From Candidatus Gastranaerophilales bacterium HUM_1 (GTDB lineage: Bacteria; Bacteroidota; Bacteroidia; Bacteroidales; UBA932), in the NCBI GenBank assembly GCA_963646585.1, contig CAVIXF010000341.1, forward strand, positions 1 to 46,276: a stretch of DNA of 46,276 bases, given 5' to 3'. The notes beneath the pieces are model-generated. The model searched no databases. It saw nothing but the letters and a program-made list of their open reading frames with translations, and had not been told where the DNA came from. The translations under genes and the position numbers were made by a program. Below, in pieces: positions 4,310-37,110 of the stretch. Each line of letters opens with the position of its first letter. Position 1 is the first letter of the stretch.

Positions 4310-4722
4310 TGACACTGATTGAACTTGCAAGAACCCTTCGCCCGCTGCTTGAAAAGGCTATGACCAAAACCGAAAGCCTGACCGACGAGGAGGCAATCGC
4401 GGCGACCTGCCTGTACCCGCACTGGAGCGGGGAGAGCGTCGAGTACGCGGCGGGTCAGCGGGTGCAGTACGGCGGCACGCTTTACACGGTGCTCCAAGCC
4501 CACACCTCGCAGGCGGGATGGACGCCGACCGGCGCGGTGTCGCTGTGGGCGAAAGTGCTCATTCCTGATCCGACCATCGTGCCGGAGTGGGAACAGCCGG
4601 AAAGCACGAACCCGTACAAGAAGGGCGACAAAGTGAAGCACAACGGTAAGACATGGGTATCCGACTACGACGCCAACGTCTGGGAACCCGGTGTCTTCGG
4701 CTGGTCGGAGGTAACCGAATGA
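4306..4722 (+). CDS. Carbohydrate-binding module (CBM5/12-like) protein
   Basis: YAAGQRVQYGGTLYTVLQAHTSQAGWTP and YKKGDKVKHNGKTW motifs. Confidence 0.7.
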   Translation: MMTLIELARTLRPLLEKAMTKTESLTDEEAIAATCLYPHWSGESVEYAAGQRVQYGGTLYTVLQAHTSQAGWTPTGAVSLWAKVLIPDPTIVPEWEQPESTNPYKKGDKVKHNGKTWVSDYDANVWEPGVFGWSEVTE

Positions 4723-5036
4723 TCGTCGAGAAAATAATCGCGTGGGCTGTGCCCTTTGTCTGCGGCGGAATCATCACCGGCATCGTCGCATATATCAAGA
4801 CGCTGAAAAAGCGGATCGACGCCATCGGCGAAGGGGTGCAGTGCTTACTGCGAGCTGAAATAATACGAAATCATGAAAAGTGCATGGACAAGGGCTTCTG
4901 CCCGATCTATGCGAAGGAAGCCTTGAAAAGGGTTTATCACGCTTACCATGACCTTCAGGGGAATGACGTCGCGACGAGACTTTATAATGAGGTCATGGAA
5001 TTACCTGTGGAGGCGAGAAACAATGATCAGAATTAA
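4719..5036 (+). CDS. Putative holin
   Basis: N-terminal TM segment (IIAWAVPFVCGGIITGIVAYI); ATGA overlap with upstream gene; lysis region. Confidence 0.6.
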   Translation: MIVEKIIAWAVPFVCGGIITGIVAYIKTLKKRIDAIGEGVQCLLRAEIIRNHEKCMDKGFCPIYAKEALKRVYHAYHDLQGNDVATRLYNEVMELPVEARNNDQN

Positions 5037-14349: not shown

Positions 14350-14371
14350 GCCGCCTTCGGGCGGCTTTTTT
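14350..14371 (+). terminator. Intrinsic terminator (UUCG tetraloop)
   Basis: GCCGCC-TTCG-GGCGGC-TTTTTT. Confidence 0.85.
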
Positions 14372-14984
14372 ATTTTATACTTGCATTATAAATTAATTCT
14401 TCGAGCTTGTCGCGATCCCATAGCACAACCCCTGTCTCTTTTGCGAGAATCTTTGCATTCTCGCTGAAATACAAGTTGGTTATGACAACCGCGGAATCCG
14501 CATTGTAGTGAATGCGCCCTGAATATATCTCTTGAACCGGTTTGAGCCCGATTCTGCTGCCCGGCGAATACCTCTTGCATTGAATCGCATATTTCAAGCC
14601 GTTCTTATGCGCGATTATGTCTGTACCGTAATCGCCGCTTGCAACAGTCACTTCGACGTGCTGAAATCCGTTTTTGCGAAGCAACTGCGCAATATAGTGC
14701 TCGAACATATGCCCTTCCATGTAATCGATATCATGCCAGTCGATTTGATGATCCGGCGATGGTAGAGCGGCGTTCTCAATGCGTTTTCTCTCGGCGTAAT
14801 TCGCTAAAGCTTCACAGGCTGCTAAAATCACAGGAAGCAATAAGTGCAGTATCTTAACTATAGCAATTATAGATAAAATTGCAACTACAACTTTCCAGTA
14901 ATTAACAAGAATCGCAAACGCAAATATCCCGACCGCTATGGTAAATGTGCATCCAACGTCCGACTTCGACGATCTCCTACTCAT
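14370..14984 (-). CDS. Membrane-anchored Mrr-like restriction endonuclease-domain protein
   Basis: FEHYIA..SGDYGTDII..AIQCKRY Mrr_cat motif; N-terminal TM segments. Confidence 0.85.
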   Translation of the reverse strand: MSRRSSKSDVGCTFTIAVGIFAFAILVNYWKVVVAILSIIAIVKILHLLLPVILAACEALANYAERKRIENAALPSPDHQIDWHDIDYMEGHMFEHYIAQLLRKNGFQHVEVTVASGDYGTDIIAHKNGLKYAIQCKRYSPGSRIGLKPVQEIYSGRIHYNADSAVVITNLYFSENAKILAKETGVVLWDRDKLEELIYNASIK

Positions 14985-15301: not shown

Positions 15302-15640
15302 TCATCCTTTCATCTGTTCAATAATTTTTTTGAAAAGCTCGCGCTTCTCCGGCGATATGTCACGGTAAAGTTCGAGCATTTCTACTTCTTCGGGGGACAG
15401 CTGCACCGGGGTGCTGTCCGGGGCGGGGTCGTCAGTCTCTCCGATGAGATAATCGGGGGAGACGCCGAGGGTGCCAGCGAAACTGTTGAGGTCTTCCGGC
15501 TTCAAAGCACATTTCCCGTTCCATATATCGTTGAGATATGTGTTCTTCCTGCCTATCTTGTCGGTGAGGTATTTTTGAGATATGCCGGTTTCCTTACACG
15601 TTTGTTTCAGACGTTCTTTGAATGTGGTAATATTGTACAT
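15302..15640 (-). CDS. CI-like XRE repressor without peptidase domain
   Basis: RLKQTCKETGISQKYL...LGVSPDYLIGETDDP; divergent from the early promoter. Confidence 0.85.
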   Translation of the reverse strand: MYNITTFKERLKQTCKETGISQKYLTDKIGRKNTYLNDIWNGKCALKPEDLNSFAGTLGVSPDYLIGETDDPAPDSTPVQLSPEEVEMLELYRDISPEKRELFKKIIEQMKG

Positions 15641-15672: not shown

Positions 15673-15725
15673 TCTAATAATAATTAGATAAACCTATTGA
15701 CATCTAACAAAAATTAGAGTATAAT
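15673..15725 (+). promoter_or_regulatory. Early lytic promoter with two operators
   Basis: TTGACA 15697-15702, 17 bp, TATAAT 15720-15725; TCTAA-N6-TTAGA at 15673-15688 and 15703-15718 (second fills the spacer). Confidence 0.85.
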
Positions 15726-15762
15726 ATATTCAGTCACAAGAAATTGACAGGAGGTGAAGAAA

Positions 15763-16002
15763 ATGGTACCTCGTGAAGAGCTCACCCCACAGGTCGTCGT
15801 CGATGGACTGGCGGACAGCTACGCAGCGTTTCTGAAGGTCGCGCGGCTGTATCTCGGGGCGGACATTGAGAAGCCTTTCTACGAGCTTAACGAAGCTTTC
15901 AAGAAAGCGATTGACGCTGCTCTTACTTTCTACCACGGCTGGAAGATTTCCTCTTTTTCAGAGTCATCCGCTGTTGCTCCGGAAGATCAATCTGTTCGAT
16001 AA
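15763..16002 (+). CDS. Hypothetical early protein
   Basis: AGGAGGTGA SD. Confidence 0.7.
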   Translation: MVPREELTPQVVVDGLADSYAAFLKVARLYLGADIEKPFYELNEAFKKAIDAALTFYHGWKISSFSESSAVAPEDQSVR

Positions 16003-16330: not shown

Positions 16331-16461
16331 ATTACCTCAAAATTGAATATGACGTCGGGCGAGGTTATTCCGAATTCAGGCGGATTCCTGAATACGGTTA
16401 TTTTCTGAGATGTGCGATAATCGAAATGTCAGTGAACTCAGTCGCTTAAACTGTCAGCTGA

Positions 16462-16545
16462 TTAAAGCGTCAGACCAAGCATTAAGAGGTCAACGATGAG
16501 CTGGAGAATGCAGATTGTTAAATACAGTTTCTCGAATTTACTCAC
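16462..16545 (-). CDS. 27-aa hydrophobic peptide MSKFEKLYLTICILQLIVDLLMLGLTL
   Basis: GGAGGTG SD 5 nt before GTG; own promoter; too short for the ORF track. Confidence 0.6.
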   Translation of the reverse strand: MSKFEKLYLTICILQLIVDLLMLGLTL

Positions 16546-16569
16546 AAGACCACCTCCCCATTACGGTTC

Positions 16570-16604
16570 GGCGCTCTGGCGCTCTGGGCGCTCTATGGCG
16601 CTCT
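16570..16604 (-). repeat. 4x AGAGCGCC tandem repeats
   Basis: GGCGCTCT on plus at 16570, 16578, 16587 and 16597. Confidence 0.95.
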
Positions 16605-16655
16605 CAGTTTAGGGTATCGGAACCTCGCTCGGCGGCCATATAAAATGGCACTTCT

Positions 16656-16684
16656 ATTATATCACATTGTCACCATCTTGTCAA
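16656..16684 (-). promoter_or_regulatory. Consensus sigma-A promoter, leftward, extended -10
   Basis: Minus strand TTGACA-agatggtgacaatgtga-TATAAT; -35 lies in the palindrome TGTCAA-N6-TTGACA. Confidence 0.85.
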
Positions 16685-16716
16685 GAAATTTTGACAGAAT
16701 TTAGGAGGAGAAAACA

Positions 16717-29923: not shown

Positions 29924-29992
29924 TTATGAGCGGTGCGCGAGCTCCAGCAGGATCAGCACCGGCACTATCAGGATGTACAGCACTACAAGCAC
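29924..29992 (-). CDS. 22-aa hydrophobic peptide MLVVLYILIVPVLILLELAHRS
   Basis: GGAGGTGA SD, own promoter and terminator; too short for the ORF track. Confidence 0.65.
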   Translation of the reverse strand: MLVVLYILIVPVLILLELAHRS

Positions 29993-31315: not shown

Positions 31316-31344
31316 ATTATAGCACACTTTTTTGCTGTTGTCAA
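31316..31344 (-). promoter_or_regulatory. Consensus sigma-A promoter, leftward
   Basis: TTGACA-acagcaaaaaagtgtgc-TATAAT with A-rich UP element. Confidence 0.88.
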
Positions 31345-31568: not shown

Positions 31569-31597
31569 TTGACATCAGCATAATTATGTGCTATAAT
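31569..31597 (+). promoter_or_regulatory. Consensus sigma-A promoter, rightward
   Basis: TTGACA-tcagcataattatgtgc-TATAAT. Confidence 0.88.
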
Positions 31598-32561: not shown

Positions 32562-32831
32562 ATGAACCCGATAACCATGAGCGAGAACTGCACAGCGGCG
32601 CATAACATCAACGCACTGACAGAGGCATACAAGCTGCTGACGAACGAGATCGTCGGCGCGAGAAAGAACGAGAAGATTAAAAAGGCGTATGACGACCTCA
32701 ACGAGGCGTTTTACGCGGCGATTCGCGCGGAGAGTGAGCGGATCGTGCTGAGCGGCGAATCAAGCCGTAACACCGTAACACCGGAATCACGTGTAACGGA
32801 GCGGGTCGACCGTAACACCGTAACACAATAA
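32562..32831 (+). CDS. Hypothetical protein
   Basis: GGAGG SD; repeat-derived C-terminus. Confidence 0.6.
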   Translation: MNPITMSENCTAAHNINALTEAYKLLTNEIVGARKNEKIKKAYDDLNEAFYAAIRAESERIVLSGESSRNTVTPESRVTERVDRNTVTQ

Positions 32832-33038: not shown

Positions 33039-33185
33039 GGCTGCGAACCGCAACCGGCTTTCCCGAAAAGGAAGGACAGCGAGCAGATACCGCAAACGTT
33101 CACCTGACCGCGTGAAGCGGTCACGGAATAACAAACGCATCCCGCACCGGCATTGTGCCGCGCGGAGTACCGAACCCCTATACTT

Positions 33186-33237
33186 AGAGCGCCCAGAGCG
33201 CCATTTTCAGAGGAGAGTGGCGTCTTGGGCGTTTTTT
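33186..33237 (+). promoter_or_regulatory. AGAGCGCC x2 hairpin/terminator covering the probable terL SD and start
   Basis: 20-bp stem (one mismatch, several G-U) with AGAG loop, then T6; AGAGGAG and in-frame TTG 33225 lie in the loop and 3' arm. Confidence 0.75.
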
Positions 33238-35000
33238 CATGTGAAGATACTGGAAATAAAAAATCAAAAAAGGCAAAAAAAGGGAATAAAGCGATAATCC
33301 CCGGTTTTGAGAACTGGAACGACCGGCTGCCGGAGTGCGTCACGCTGTGCGAGGCTATCGCGGCGTACGGGACGGACAGCCTTTCGGTCGCGAAAGACTA
33401 CTTCGACGCGCTGAGGGGGCTCGCGCAGGACAATTCGGCGGAATCGTACGAGGAAGAACTCGCCTACATGGTGGCGAAAGGGAAAGAATTTTTTGACGTC
33501 GTAAATCGTATGCTCGCGAGGTCGGCCGCCGCGAGGACGTCAGCCGCGCCGGAATGGTACGAGCTGAAACGGAAAGTCTGCCTTCTGCTCGCGCCGCACT
33601 CGTTCGACCACTATATGCAGTACGTCGAATGGAACAGAGAACCGTCGCGGAAATTCTGGGTGCCGAGAAGAAGCGTCCTCATGGGGCTGTGCAACGATCT
33701 GCAAGACCTCGAGGAGCATAGGATTAAATTTCTCGGGGTGAGTATGCCGCCTCGTGTCGGAAAATCCACGATTTGTATATTTTTCCTGACCTGGCACATG
33801 GGACGACATCCGGACGACGCGTCCGCTATGGGCGGGCACTCCGACACGCTCGTGAACGGGTTCTACGGCGAGCTGAACGCGGTGCTCGACCCGGACGGCG
33901 AATACCTCTGGCACGACGTGTTCCCGCACGCGCAGATCGAAAGCCGGTCGGCGAAATACCTGCAAATCAACATCAATCACCCGAAGAGATTCCCGACGAT
34001 GACGTGCAGATCGGCGGAAGGCACGTGGACGGGCGCTATCGATATCTCACGGGACGGCATCCTTTACGTCGACGACCTCGTGAAAGACCTCGAGGAATCG
34101 CTGTCTCCCTCCCGTCTCGACGCGAAATACAACATCTACCTGAACCAGATGAAAGACCGTATGAAGGACGGCGCACTACAGCTGATGGTCGGTACGCGCT
34201 GGAACGTCATGGACCCGCTCGGACGTGTGCGCGAACAGTACAGAGACAATCCCGAATACCGGTTCACCGTCATTCCCGCGCTCGACGCGAACGGAGAATC
34301 CAACTTCCAGTACGACTACGGCGTCGGATTCTCGACCGAATACTACCGCGACATGAAAGCGTCAATCGACGACTGCACATGGTGCGCGAAGTACCAGGGC
34401 GCACCGTACGTCCGCCAGGGTCTCGTCTTTCCGCCGGATTCACTGCTCCGCTACAACGGCGTGCTACCGGGCGGATCTCCGGAACGCATTATCGCCGCGT
34501 GCGACGTCGCGTGGGGCGGAGAAGACTATCTGTCAATGCCCATCGTCTACGTGTACGGCGACGGCTCCATGTACTGCGTCGATGTGGTGTTCTCGAACGC
34601 GAACAAGGTATTCACACAGCCCGAAGTGGTCGGCAAGCTGCTGATTCACCGCCCGCATCAGGTACAGTTCGAGGCGAACAACGGCGGAACCGAATATGCG
34701 CAGACGGTTGACGAAATGCTCCGCGCGAAAGGGTGTTCTCTCAACATCTCGACGCGACGCGCTCCCGGCAACGCCTCGAAGCTCTCCCGCATCATCCAGT
34801 ACGCGCCGGATATCGCGAAGATTCACTTTCTCGACTTCGACCACTCGACGCCGGAATACCGCTCGTTCATCGAATGGCTCTGTTCTTTCGTCTCGCTCGG
34901 CAAGAACGTCCACGACGACGCGCCCGATTCGCTCGCACAGCTGATGGACTTAGCAACCGGAAACTGGGGCATTGTCTCGGTTCAGAAACGGGTATTCTGA
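33225..35000 (+). CDS. terL: Terminase large subunit (start uncertain)
   Basis: MPPRVGKST Walker A, LYVDD Walker B, CDVA and HDDAPDS nuclease motifs. Confidence 0.93.
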   Translation: MGVFSCEDTGNKKSKKAKKGNKAIIPGFENWNDRLPECVTLCEAIAAYGTDSLSVAKDYFDALRGLAQDNSAESYEEELAYMVAKGKEFFDVVNRMLARSAAARTSAAPEWYELKRKVCLLLAPHSFDHYMQYVEWNREPSRKFWVPRRSVLMGLCNDLQDLEEHRIKFLGVSMPPRVGKSTICIFFLTWHMGRHPDDASAMGGHSDTLVNGFYGELNAVLDPDGEYLWHDVFPHAQIESRSAKYLQININHPKRFPTMTCRSAEGTWTGAIDISRDGILYVDDLVKDLEESLSPSRLDAKYNIYLNQMKDRMKDGALQLMVGTRWNVMDPLGRVREQYRDNPEYRFTVIPALDANGESNFQYDYGVGFSTEYYRDMKASIDDCTWCAKYQGAPYVRQGLVFPPDSLLRYNGVLPGGSPERIIAACDVAWGGEDYLSMPIVYVYGDGSMYCVDVVFSNANKVFTQPEVVGKLLIHRPHQVQFEANNGGTEYAQTVDEMLRAKGCSLNISTRRAPGNASKLSRIIQYAPDIAKIHFLDFDHSTPEYRSFIEWLCSFVSLGKNVHDDAPDSLAQLMDLATGNWGIVSVQKRVF

Positions 35001-35068: not shown

Positions 35069-35097
35069 TTGACAAATTCTTGTTTAAGGTGTATAAT
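35069..35097 (+). promoter_or_regulatory. Consensus sigma-A promoter upstream of portal
   Basis: TTGACA-aattcttgtttaaggtg-TATAAT. Confidence 0.8.
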
Positions 35098-35101
35098 AAT
35101 A

Positions 35102-35216
35102 CATGGCGGGCACTCCTATCCCCTTCTGCCCGTATGCCATGCTCCGCACCGTTTGCGGATATGGTTTTCTCCTTCATCCCCGGCGCTGTTTTTAACCTTT
35201 CTCACGCCGGGGTGAA
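35102..35216 (+). ncRNA. Structured three-hairpin leader with pyrimidine-rich loops
   Basis: Stems at 35102-35136, 35137-35164 and 35173-35216; CTCCT in loop 1 and in the linker. Confidence 0.45.
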
Positions 35217-35242: not shown

Positions 35243-36832
35243 ATGGCGGAACCCAAAGTCGAAGGGTATGCGGACGACGGCACACCCATATTCGGCGCGG
35301 CAGAGCTCCCGGACGTTTCTCCGGTACTGACCGGGCGACATATCATATATACGGACGCGGAAACGGTCGACGCGGCAAACGTCGTACAGGTGCTGAATGA
35401 CGTCCTCCCGACCTTTTACCGGAACCAGAGCGAAATAAACTATCTCTACGGCTACTACAAGGGCAGACAGCCCATCCTCAACCGCGTCAAGGAAGTCCGG
35501 CCGGAGATCAACAACAAAATCGTCGAAAACCACGCGTGGGAAATTGTATCCTTCAAGGTCGCGTACCTCCTCGGAGCGCCCATCGCCTACACGCGCCGGA
35601 AAATCCGGAGCGGAGAGGCACGCATGACCATGACGCCCGATGAGATCACCGCGGCGCAGACACGCGACCCGGTGTCTGATAAGGTCGGACGGCTCAATGA
35701 AATCATGCACGTCCTTGACAAGGAGGCCATCGACCACGACATAGCCGAGTGGAACCACATATGCGGAACCGCTTACCGATATGTCATCGGGAACTTAGCG
35801 AACGACGAGAAAATCGAAATCGGCAGTCTCGACCCGAGACGGACAGGCGTCGTCTACTCGAAAGAGCTCGGCGCGAAGCCCGTCATGGCGTTCCAGGAGA
35901 CGCTCAGAGACAATCAGCAGACAATATACACCGTCTGGACAGATACCATGCAGTTCGAGATCGTGAACAACACCGTCACGTCCTCGAGGCTCCACGGCAT
36001 CGGGGCGGTTCCGATCATCGAGTACCCGCTCAACAACGCGCGGCTCGGCTCATTCGAGGTCGTGCTCGAAGTCCTCGACGGCATCAACAAGCTGTCGTCG
36101 AACCGGCTTGACGGCACGGAGCAGTTCGTCCAGAGTTTCATTAAATTCGTCAACTGCCAGATTGACCCCGAGAAGTACAAGGAGTTCCGGCAGGAAGGCG
36201 CTATCGTCATCAAGTCGGACAACTCGAACCCTTCGGACGTCGATATCATCTCGTCCGAACTCGACCAGTCGCAGACACAGGTCGAAATCGACCACCTCTA
36301 TCAGCAAGCCCTCACGATATGCGGTATGCCGGACAGAAACGGTGCGAACCGCACGACCGGAGACACCGGCAACGCCGTGCTGCTCCGCGACGGGTGGGCA
36401 ATGGCGGAAAGCTGCGCTAGGGACACCGTGATGCAGTGGGAACGCAGCGAAAAGCAGTTCCTCAGAATCGCGCTCTCCCTTCTCAAAATATACGGCAAGC
36501 TCGACCTCGGGCTCGCCGACATCGACATCCGGTTCACGAAAGGTAATACGGAGAACATGCTCGTCAAGACGCAGGCTCTCATGAACCTTCTCGACGCCGG
36601 AGTACATCCCGAAATCGCGTTCGGTATACCTCACCTGTTCGACGACCCGAATCAGGCGTATATCGACTCGATCCCATACCTCGCCGCGCGGCTCCAGTCC
36701 GGGGCTGCCGGGCAGGACAATTCAGGGCAGAAAGACGCAAAGCAAAACAATTCAGGGCAGGACAAGCCCGGAGGCGGAAGCAATGACGGAAACAAAAACG
36801 ATTCCGGCGGCGGAAGCTCCGGAACTGATTAA
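35243..36832 (+). CDS. Portal protein (SPP1-like)
   Basis: LYGYYKGRQPI, NNKIVENHA, VPIIEYPLN; position after terL. Confidence 0.92.
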   Translation: MAEPKVEGYADDGTPIFGAAELPDVSPVLTGRHIIYTDAETVDAANVVQVLNDVLPTFYRNQSEINYLYGYYKGRQPILNRVKEVRPEINNKIVENHAWEIVSFKVAYLLGAPIAYTRRKIRSGEARMTMTPDEITAAQTRDPVSDKVGRLNEIMHVLDKEAIDHDIAEWNHICGTAYRYVIGNLANDEKIEIGSLDPRRTGVVYSKELGAKPVMAFQETLRDNQQTIYTVWTDTMQFEIVNNTVTSSRLHGIGAVPIIEYPLNNARLGSFEVVLEVLDGINKLSSNRLDGTEQFVQSFIKFVNCQIDPEKYKEFRQEGAIVIKSDNSNPSDVDIISSELDQSQTQVEIDHLYQQALTICGMPDRNGANRTTGDTGNAVLLRDGWAMAESCARDTVMQWERSEKQFLRIALSLLKIYGKLDLGLADIDIRFTKGNTENMLVKTQALMNLLDAGVHPEIAFGIPHLFDDPNQAYIDSIPYLAARLQSGAAGQDNSGQKDAKQNNSGQDKPGGGSNDGNKNDSGGGSSGTD

Positions 36833-36968
36833 AGTCCGCTGCCCGCACTGCGGAAGGCTCCTCGGAGCAATAAGCGGTGTGGCAGAGATAAAGTGCCGCG
36901 GCTGCGGGACGACGGTCAGAGCCAGAACAGAAGGCTCACACGCCGTCATACGCACGGTCGCGTCATAA
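36783..36968 (+). CDS. Mu Com-like zinc-ribbon regulator
   Basis: VRCPHCGRLL..AEIKCRGCG matches the Com pattern IRCxxCxKLL..IEIRCPRC; GGAGG SD. Confidence 0.8.
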   Translation: MTETKTIPAAEAPELIKVRCPHCGRLLGAISGVAEIKCRGCGTTVRARTEGSHAVIRTVAS

Positions 36969-36992: not shown

Positions 36993-37057
36993 AGAGCGCC
37001 AAGAGCGCCAGATATCTACAGGTTTTTACACAACCTGTCGGTTCTGGCGCTCTTTTT
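36993..37057 (+). terminator. AGAGCGCC x2 intrinsic terminator before the head genes
   Basis: AAGAGCGCCAGA/TCTGGCGCTCTT and ACAGGTT/AACCTGT stems followed by T-run. Confidence 0.85.
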
Positions 37058-37110
37058 AACTTATTAAGCCTCTTCCCCGGGGCGACGCTGGTTTTAATTT
37101 ATTAAACAAT

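What the first reader, a model, noticed from the sequence alone, without database searches (positions are those of the whole stretch)
16546..16684. Separately promoted antisense RNA carrying four unpaired copies of the late-switch repeat
Seen: a perfect leftward sigma-A promoter (16656-16684) drives a roughly 100-nt leader with AGAGCGCC x4, and I see no complementary arm in that leader. It contains an exact 19-nt copy (TAGAGCGCCCAGAGCGCCA, minus strand of 16577-16595) of the terL site 33185-33203, 17 kb away. Model A (inference): a lysogen-expressed decoy that titrates the Com-like activator, like CsrB/RsmZ sponges, suppressing leaky late expression or superinfecting relatives. Model B (inference): the rightward early transcript carries the complementary GGCGCTCT x4 and opens the late hairpins by trans base-pairing.
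Basis: partly seen in the sequence, partly recalled or inferred. Interest (0 to 1): 0.8.

Follow-up and report, generated by a model that had tools for sequence, protein, structure and literature searches.

The report
Com-binding leader of phage peptide gene
In a family of gut temperate phages, a transcript that runs against the lytic genes and encodes a tiny membrane peptide carries the same small RNA hairpin that guards the late-gene stop signals, so the phage's late activator protein probably also senses or is soaked up by this transcript.

Summary
The promoter, the four AGAGCGCC boxes and the 19-nt match to the terL site are real. (1) It is not a stand-alone sRNA: the leader ends in a strong ribosome-binding site and a conserved 27-codon membrane-peptide gene (21 of 22 related records), with no leftward terminator. 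(2) The boxes are not unpaired: they match the published Mu Com motif GAG(N)2CC and fold into Com-type hairpins; the last box can also pair with the ribosome-binding site. Four copies and the 19-nt identity are lineage-specific (14 of 22 have two boxes). In a relative with a diverged Com, leader and late-terminator sites changed together while their stems differ, which favours protein recognition and argues against trans pairing (Model B). The promoter has no CI operator and faces the CI-repressed lytic promoter. Best reading: a lysogen-phase, toxin-like peptide mRNA whose translation is coupled to Com; decoy action (Model A) is a close, compatible rival. Folding did not show a Com-driven opening of the ribosome site, and no RNA data were available. 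The scan found Com/terminator regulons before on other DNA, but no such counter-transcript.

The parts
16656..16684 (-). Leftward sigma-A-type promoter (P_left), 12/12 consensus plus TG; no CI operator
   Evidence: hexamers invariant with variable spacer in relatives; operator scan
16546..16649 (-). About 105-nt 5' leader of the leftward transcript (start site inferred from the -10 box)
   Evidence: sequence; start inferred
16621..16633 (-). 5' arm of an end-to-end helix (partner 16354-16366); strand of the pairing RNA not resolved
16607..16615 (-). Upstream pyrimidine arm able to pair with the 5' part of the Shine-Dalgarno region; covaries between two-box alleles and G118
16570..16604 (-). 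Four GAG(N)2CC boxes (16597-16604, 16587-16594, 16578-16585, 16570-16577); boxes 1/2 form the Com-type hairpin 16587-16603; box 4 doubles as anti-Shine-Dalgarno
   Evidence: motif from PMC6483171
16550..16559 (-). Shine-Dalgarno GGGGAGGTGG
16462..16545 (-). 27-aa hydrophobic peptide gene (GTG start; one predicted membrane helix; no Pfam, PHROG or NCBIfam family)
16370..16405 (+). Conserved hairpin with a U-rich tail on the rightward strand: candidate weak terminator of the P_R transcript (absent from G118)
16354..16366 (-). 3' arm of the end-to-end helix
15923..16330 (-). Accessory leftward gene (135 aa) inserted behind the leftward transcript in this lineage
15673..15725 (+). Lytic promoter P_R (15697-15725) with two CI-type operators (15673-15688, 15703-15718); convergent with P_left
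15302..15640 (-). CI-like HTH repressor
33187..33240 (+). Late terminator before terL whose 5' arm holds two boxes
36783..36968 (+). Com-like Cys4 zinc ribbon, 61 aa
   Evidence: PF10122 22.7 bits vs cut-off 22.9; phrog_6417 translational regulator
36994..37062 (+). Late terminator before the scaffold gene whose 5' arm holds two boxes

Best explanation
The stretch is the 5' leader of a leftward mRNA for a 27-aa membrane peptide. Its boxes fold into the small hairpin read by the phage's Com-like zinc ribbon, the same signal that sits in the 5' arm of the two late terminators (this shared-reader part I put at about 0.75). Most likely working: P_left has no CI operator, so the RNA is made in the lysogen while the facing lytic promoter P_R is shut. 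The peptide is kept untranslated by several pairings over its ribosome site, one of them made by the last box. Com, made in lytic growth, binds the hairpin and frees or remodels the ribosome site as Mu Com does on mom mRNA, so the peptide appears only where Com is present; on induction the phage's own P_R transcript is antisense to the whole RNA and can silence it. Shown: sequence anatomy, conservation, covariation with late sites, operator layout. Inferred: transcription, Com binding, direction of the effect, toxicity.
For: Motif equals the SELEX motif of Com, GAG(N)2CC, bipartite, in a short hairpin (PMC6483171). A structure-plus-motif scan finds 5 fully paired sites in the window: 3 in the leader and the 2 late terminators, all on the transcribed strand, against 0.125 per shuffled genome (the rule was drawn from these sites). 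In G118 (Com 45% identical over residues 16-46) the second half-site reads GAAYRCC in the leader and at both late sites. Box 1/2 stem shows G-C, G-U and A-U at one pair in window, L051 and L304. SD plus ORF kept in 21 of 22 other records; variable sites by codon position 13/3/14 among 8 distinct alleles; L051 keeps length and hydrophobic pattern at 35% identity. Last box lies 12-14 nt before the SD in all of them and a last-box/SD helix is predicted in each lineage (-10.6 to -14.1 kcal/mol). The one record without the ORF (G114) also lost the second box. End-to-end helix recurs in three different sequences, a feature of type I toxin mRNAs (PMC8594479 passages).
Against: Enforcing the Com hairpin does not open the ribosome site in the folding model: change +0.3 and +0.5 kcal/mol for the two-box allele L041, 0 to -2.1 for the window, mixed for the other three. 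Occlusion of the site is no stronger than with shuffled leaders (139, 34 and 91 of 150 shuffles as high). Formal covariation on 8 rows is not significant (209 of 500 shuffles). The swap test of the last-box/SD helix is not specific for G118. The end-to-end helix is weaker in the window (15 of 300 controls as good) and is as stable or more so on the opposite strand in several alleles. In G118 the variant hairpins have near-zero predicted probability. The Com-like protein is 0.2 bit under the Pfam cut-off and the G118 one has no PF10122 hit at E 0.001. The peptide has no family and lacks the charged C-terminus typical of type I toxins.
Confidence: 0.4

Rival explanations
1. Decoy or threshold: the lysogen-phase leader offers a ready-folded Com hairpin on an abundant RNA and titrates Com away from the late terminators; P_R antisense transcription removes the decoy on induction. 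The peptide has a separate role.
For: Leader hairpin is pre-formed (0.93-0.99 in nascent leaders) whereas it is 0.0 in the finished terminators. No computed effect on the ribosome site. Late operons have consensus host promoters without CI operators (31569, 35069; the one before portal-com is kept in 16 of 17 terL loci), so a lysogen needs a post-transcriptional lock. Site number rose twice, in the four-box lineage and in G118.
Against: 14 of 22 other records carry only one hairpin; the boxes stay at a fixed distance from a conserved SD and ORF; hairpin probability falls to 0.13-0.54 in the full-length RNA; a candidate terminator at 35136-35173 may already keep com off.
Confidence: 0.3
2. Com represses the leftward transcript: binding stabilises the closed leader or blocks ribosomes, shutting off the peptide and any read-through to cI, which locks in lysis.
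For: In two-box alleles and G118 the hairpin crowns an outer stem that covers the 5' SD and covaries (-8.9 cognate vs -6.7 swapped; -9.6 vs -4.7); enforced hairpin slightly raises the opening cost in L041; cI starts about 410-440 nt behind P_left in most relatives with no leftward terminator seen in the window.
Against: The computed effect is under 1 kcal/mol; P_R antisense transcription would already silence the RNA before Com appears; Com acts as an opener at the late sites and in Mu.
Confidence: 0.12
3. Neutral relic: the leader picked up a copy of the terL leader by recombination and the boxes do nothing here.
For: The four-box allele equals the two-box allele plus a 17-nt insert identical to the terL site, so copying between the sites happens; nine upstream bases are shared too.
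Against: Boxes are kept in 21 of 22 records, change only at the two free positions of GAG(N)2CC in L051 and L304 with stem pairing kept, and follow the phage's own late motif in G118 without being a copy of either site.
Confidence: 0.08
4. Trans base-pairing: the rightward early transcript carries the complement of the boxes and opens the late terminators.
For: The P_R transcript must cross the region to reach the early genes (no other rightward consensus promoter); the 5' arms of the late terminators are invariant while the 3' arms vary; the window has 19 nt of perfect complementarity.
Against: Longest exact match to the terL site is 9 nt in three two-box phages tested and 7 nt in G118; G119 leader drifted while its late sites did not; the antisense copy is itself folded; the invariant arm is explained by a protein motif known from SELEX.
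Confidence: 0.04
5. The boxes are DNA sites for a DNA-binding regulator.
For: Direct repeats downstream of a promoter; zinc ribbons can bind DNA (general knowledge).
Against: All fully paired sites lie on the transcribed strand; stem positions vary with pairing kept, including a G-U step valid only on that strand; Mu Com binds RNA (PMC6483171).
Confidence: 0.04

Closest known systems
Phage Mu Com and the mom mRNA leader (PF10122; PMC6483171, sections read)
   Same: About 60-aa Cys4 zinc ribbon; bipartite GAG(N)2CC motif in a short hairpin; hairpin next to a structure that covers a ribosome site and a GUG start.
   Different: Target is a membrane-peptide gene on a counter-oriented, CI-independent transcript 20 kb from com, not a DNA-modifying gene behind com; the same hairpin is built into late terminators; Gram-positive-type siphophage, not a Mu-like phage.
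Type I toxin-antitoxin loci of prophages (C. difficile and B. subtilis modules, PMC6563280 passages; mRNA folding features, PMC8594479 passages)
   Same: Small one-helix peptide, anti-SD pairings, predicted 5'-3' helix, convergent antisense transcription, prophage location.
   Different: No dedicated constitutive antitoxin RNA shown (the antisense promoter is the CI-repressed lytic one); peptide lacks a charged C-terminus and matches no family; a protein-binding hairpin sits in the leader; toxicity untested.
Lactococcus AbiD1 activated by phage Orf1 (PMC2661086, abstract only)
   Same: A resident mRNA mimics the RNA motif bound by a phage RNA-binding protein, which switches on its translation.
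   Different: AbiD1 is not a small membrane peptide (recalled), Orf1 is not shown to be Com-like, and here sensor and trigger are on the same phage.
CsrB/RsmZ protein sponges (recalled)
   Same: Repeated hairpin-displayed copies of a regulator's RNA site on a separate transcript.
   Different: One or two hairpins only, on an mRNA leader with a conserved ORF and no own terminator.

Membership tests
Com-mom type control | Com-family zinc ribbon in the genome | tested here: inconclusive
   PF10122 is the top hit, E 6.8e-5, 22.7 bits vs cut-off 22.9; 3 of 4 aligned homologues hit it; phrog_6417; no informative fold match
Com-mom type control | Bipartite GAG(N)2CC motif in a short hairpin on the RNA strand | tested here: met
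   motif
Com-mom type control | Adjacent structure covering the ribosome site | tested here: inconclusive
   predicted in all lineages but not above shuffled leaders
Com-mom type control | Protein binding activates translation | not testable with these tools
   folding proxy showed no consistent opening
Com-mom type control | Target is a mom-like DNA modification gene behind com | tested here: not met
   target is a 27-aa peptide gene; com is followed by the scaffold gene
CsrB/RsmZ-type sponge sRNA | Non-coding RNA with its own terminator | tested here: not met
   conserved SD and ORF; no leftward terminator-like site near the leader
CsrB/RsmZ-type sponge sRNA | Many tandem protein sites | tested here: not met
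   two boxes (one hairpin) in 14 of 22 other records
CsrB/RsmZ-type sponge sRNA | Titrates the protein in vivo | not testable with these tools
   needs reporters
Type I toxin-antitoxin | Small hydrophobic peptide under 60 aa with a membrane helix | tested here: met
   27 aa, best 19-residue Kyte-Doolittle mean 2.3
Type I toxin-antitoxin | Charged C-terminal residues or match to a known toxin family | tested here: not met
   no Pfam, PHROG or NCBIfam hit; charges are N-terminal
Type I toxin-antitoxin | SD sequestration and 5'-3' pairing of the mRNA | tested here: inconclusive
   helix beats controls in most alleles (0-3 of 300) but not in window, L039, L051 (15-21 of 300); strand unresolved
Type I toxin-antitoxin | Antisense antitoxin RNA | tested here: inconclusive
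   convergent P_R and a candidate terminator at 16370-16405, but P_R carries CI operators
Type I toxin-antitoxin | Toxic when expressed | not testable with these tools
   bench test

The most novel reading that the evidence does not exclude
A second, repressor-independent immunity layer aimed at the late activator. At least four CI/operator types among 8 loci examined share the same leader position and, apart from G118, the same Com site. A lysogen keeps a silent mRNA baited with the Com hairpin; a heteroimmune relative that escapes CI still makes Com, which is both soaked up and trips translation of a membrane-damaging peptide, aborting the infection, while the resident phage disarms the trap on induction by transcribing through it from P_R.
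Probability: 0.22. Interest if true: 0.85.

Novelty: new variant of a known kind. Interest (0 to 1): 0.6.

Why it matters
Com is known from one target, Mu mom. Here one Com-type hairpin appears to tie late-gene terminators to a counter-transcribed peptide mRNA in the lysis-lysogeny region, in every near-complete relative examined (12 of 12). If Com gates or is titrated by this RNA, it is an RNA-level link between the immunity switch and late genes in gut phages whose late operons use ordinary host promoters, and possibly a way for prophages to stop relatives that their repressor cannot. The parts are tiny (61-aa protein, 100-nt leader, 27-aa peptide), so every model is testable with reporters in a laboratory strain.

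Tried and rejected
Rfam at gathering score: no match in the window. Triple-box scan of viral contigs: 14 loci, one a true relative (L012), one a Com-adjacent terminator (L008), the rest mostly unrelated repeats (part of the output was cut). 100 relatives of the bin: none holds the element. Hairpin-before-SD scan: 101 loci, 80 examined for ORFs; the peptide leader only in this phage group. 80 cI-relative loci: the element only in close relatives. 19 distant terL loci (52-54%): no such site on the coding strand. Peptide search in genome contigs: nothing confirmed; the protein-database search needs 40 residues and could not be run. RNA runs: no RNA holder listed, so no reads were laid. Invertible segment: rejected, orientation is the same in all records and the arms differ. 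Peptide as the phage holin: not needed, a one-helix candidate lies at 4719-5036 in the lysis region. Com-positive-feedback argument (com behind the terL terminator): dropped, because a conserved promoter lies before portal-com. Host: not determined; the bin has no Spo0A and is unlike the bin holding G119:C14, so one or both contigs may be mis-binned. AlphaFold model of Com (pLDDT 79) gave only weak zinc-ribbon matches. Literature searches listed no paper on Com sites in terminators or counter-transcripts; the library lacks most subscription papers and I opened no supplements.

Full report
Setting. The window is a whole contig (G000:C341) whose ends overlap by about 67 nt with one mismatch: a circular temperate phage genome with integrase, CI-like repressor (15302-15640), RecT, primase, terL, SPP1-type portal, capsid, tail and GH25 lysin. 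Its terL is closest among named phages to a Clostridium innocuum phage (46%). The host is not established.

Observation. The promoter, four boxes and 19-nt identity are as described. In the 2.6-Mb bin, tandem boxes occur only in this leader and at two late sites, before terL and before the scaffold gene. At those two sites the boxes form the 5' arm of strong terminators (z -8.3 and -7.8), and the second follows a 61-aa Cys4 protein whose best Pfam hit is Mu-like Com, just under the cut-off. Across the 16 Com loci the 5' arms keep the boxes while the 3' arms vary.

The leader runs into GGGGAGGTGG and a GTG-started ORF of 27 codons, 16545..16462, with a hydrophilic start and one long hydrophobic stretch. 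I found the element in 22 other records (they are close kin, and L037 is probably the same phage as G101), including all 12 near-complete genomes searched. Of the 22, 21 keep SD and ORF. Among 8 distinct alignable alleles the variable sites fall 13/3/14 on codon positions 1/2/3; a second peptide version (L051, L304) is 35% identical with the same length and pattern. No family matched. No leftward terminator-like site lies near the leader; in most relatives cI starts about 410-440 nt behind the promoter, and in the window and some others accessory leftward genes are inserted there. So this is the head of an mRNA, not a 100-nt sRNA.

The boxes are Com-type hairpins. PMC6483171 (abstract and sections 3, 7, 14, 15, 18 read) reports that Com selects a bipartite GAG(N)2CC motif with CC(N)2-3GAG at the loop of a 3-4-bp hairpin, and that Mu Com binds such a hairpin next to a structure hiding the GUG start of mom. 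AGAGCGCC pairs fit this directly. In the nascent leader boxes 1/2 pair with probability 0.99 and box 4 pairs with the SD at about 0.93. A motif-plus-stem scan gives five fully paired sites in the window, three in the leader and the two late ones, all on the transcribed strand, against 0.125 in shuffles (the rule was derived from these sites). Changes in L051 and L304 fall on the two free positions and take one stem pair through G-C, G-U and A-U, though eight rows are too few for significance (209 of 500).

Natural experiments. G118 has the same layout, a 74-77% identical peptide and a diverged Com. Its leader boxes changed to a GAG-YRT-C...GAA-YR-CC form, and so did both late sites; the stems differ among its sites, and the longest exact leader-terL match is 7 nt. 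This is one event, but it is what a shared protein reader predicts and trans pairing does not. In G119:C14 the leader drifted while the late sites stayed. Two boxes are the common state (14 of 22); the four-box form (6 of 22) is the two-box form plus a 17-nt insert identical to the terL site, so the 19-nt identity (4 of 22) is most simply a recent copy. G114 lost the ORF together with the second box, and its cI is interrupted.

Regulatory layout. P_left faces the lytic promoter P_R. Palindromes in and upstream of the P_R spacer change with the CI type (four types in 8 loci examined); the window's type occurs only at 15673 and 15703 with at most one mismatch, not at P_left. So P_R is CI-repressed and P_left is not (inference); a second palindrome over the P_left -35 and behind P_R could still control it. 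The P_R transcript must cross the element to reach the early genes and is antisense to the whole RNA; a conserved hairpin with a U-rich tail at 16370-16405 may attenuate it. The late operons have consensus promoters without CI operators (31569, 35069). The RNA ends can pair in three unrelated sequence versions, a hallmark of type I toxin mRNAs (PMC8594479 passages; PMC6563280 passages), but the strand is unresolved and the helix is weak in the window's lineage.

Mechanism. I rank Com-gated translation of the peptide first (0.40): fixed box-to-SD distance, a last-box/SD helix in every lineage, joint loss in G114, and the Mu precedent. Against it, folding shows no consistent opening when the hairpin is enforced and occlusion is no greater than with shuffled leaders. 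The decoy reading (0.30) fits a pre-formed hairpin on a CI-independent RNA, against 0.0 in finished terminators, and two separate gains of sites; it does not explain the tie to the ORF. The two are compatible. Repression by Com (0.12), relic (0.08), trans pairing (0.04) and DNA sites (0.04) follow. No expression data could be had.

Comparison and novelty. It works like Com-mom and is built like a type I toxin locus, but is a member of neither by the tests above; AbiD1-Orf1 (PMC2661086, abstract only) is the nearest functional analogy; CsrB/RsmZ is recalled. Ten searches (listings only, apart from the four papers named) showed no description of Com sites on a counter-transcript. Earlier notes of this scan describe Com-like proteins with terminator repeats in other genomes but none like this leader. 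Verdict: real, conserved, misread in detail; a new variant of Com-type RNA control, interest 0.6.

Noticed in passing
window 35069-35173 (+): Perfect promoter before portal-com, kept in 16 of 17 terL loci; its leader holds a hairpin with a U-rich tail and a 13-nt exact complement of the ribosome site and start of two early genes (17041, 18360), kept in 15 of 17 loci. Possible trans-acting antisense RNA or attenuator.
   Followed up: partly
window 15733-15748 and 16680-16695: Matching GTCA..TGAC palindromes behind P_R and over the -35 of P_left, independent of CI type: candidate operator of a second, Cro/Apl-like regulator.
   Followed up: partly
window 15673-15718; L182, L183, L184, L191, L195, L196, L197: At least four CI/operator types are swapped among close relatives while the leader stays.
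   Followed up: partly
L079, L082, L087, L105 (about position 701): In other phages the same hairpin sits directly before the SD of a 122-aa gene that looks tail-related, suggesting translation-level Com control of late genes.
   Followed up: no
window 29924-29992 (-): A second leftward 22-codon hydrophobic ORF with a strong SD.
   Followed up: no
window 15754-16002 and 32562-32831 (+): Two small ORFs share a similar C-terminal motif by eye; possible paralogues, each first or last before a regulated hairpin.
   Followed up: no
window 31316-31344 (-) and 31569-31597 (+): Divergent perfect promoters with similar spacers next to an HTH gene and a serine invertase/resolvase upstream of the terL terminator.
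   Followed up: no
window 14370-14984 (-): Mrr-type nuclease domain gene in the lysogeny module.
   Followed up: no
L304 / G119:C14: A 43.8-kb contig of this phage family sits in a bin labelled Akkermansia muciniphila, while G000 is unlike that bin; binning of these contigs is doubtful.
   Followed up: partly
L052 / G114: Allele lacking the peptide gene and second box, with cI interrupted by an insertion.
   Followed up: partly
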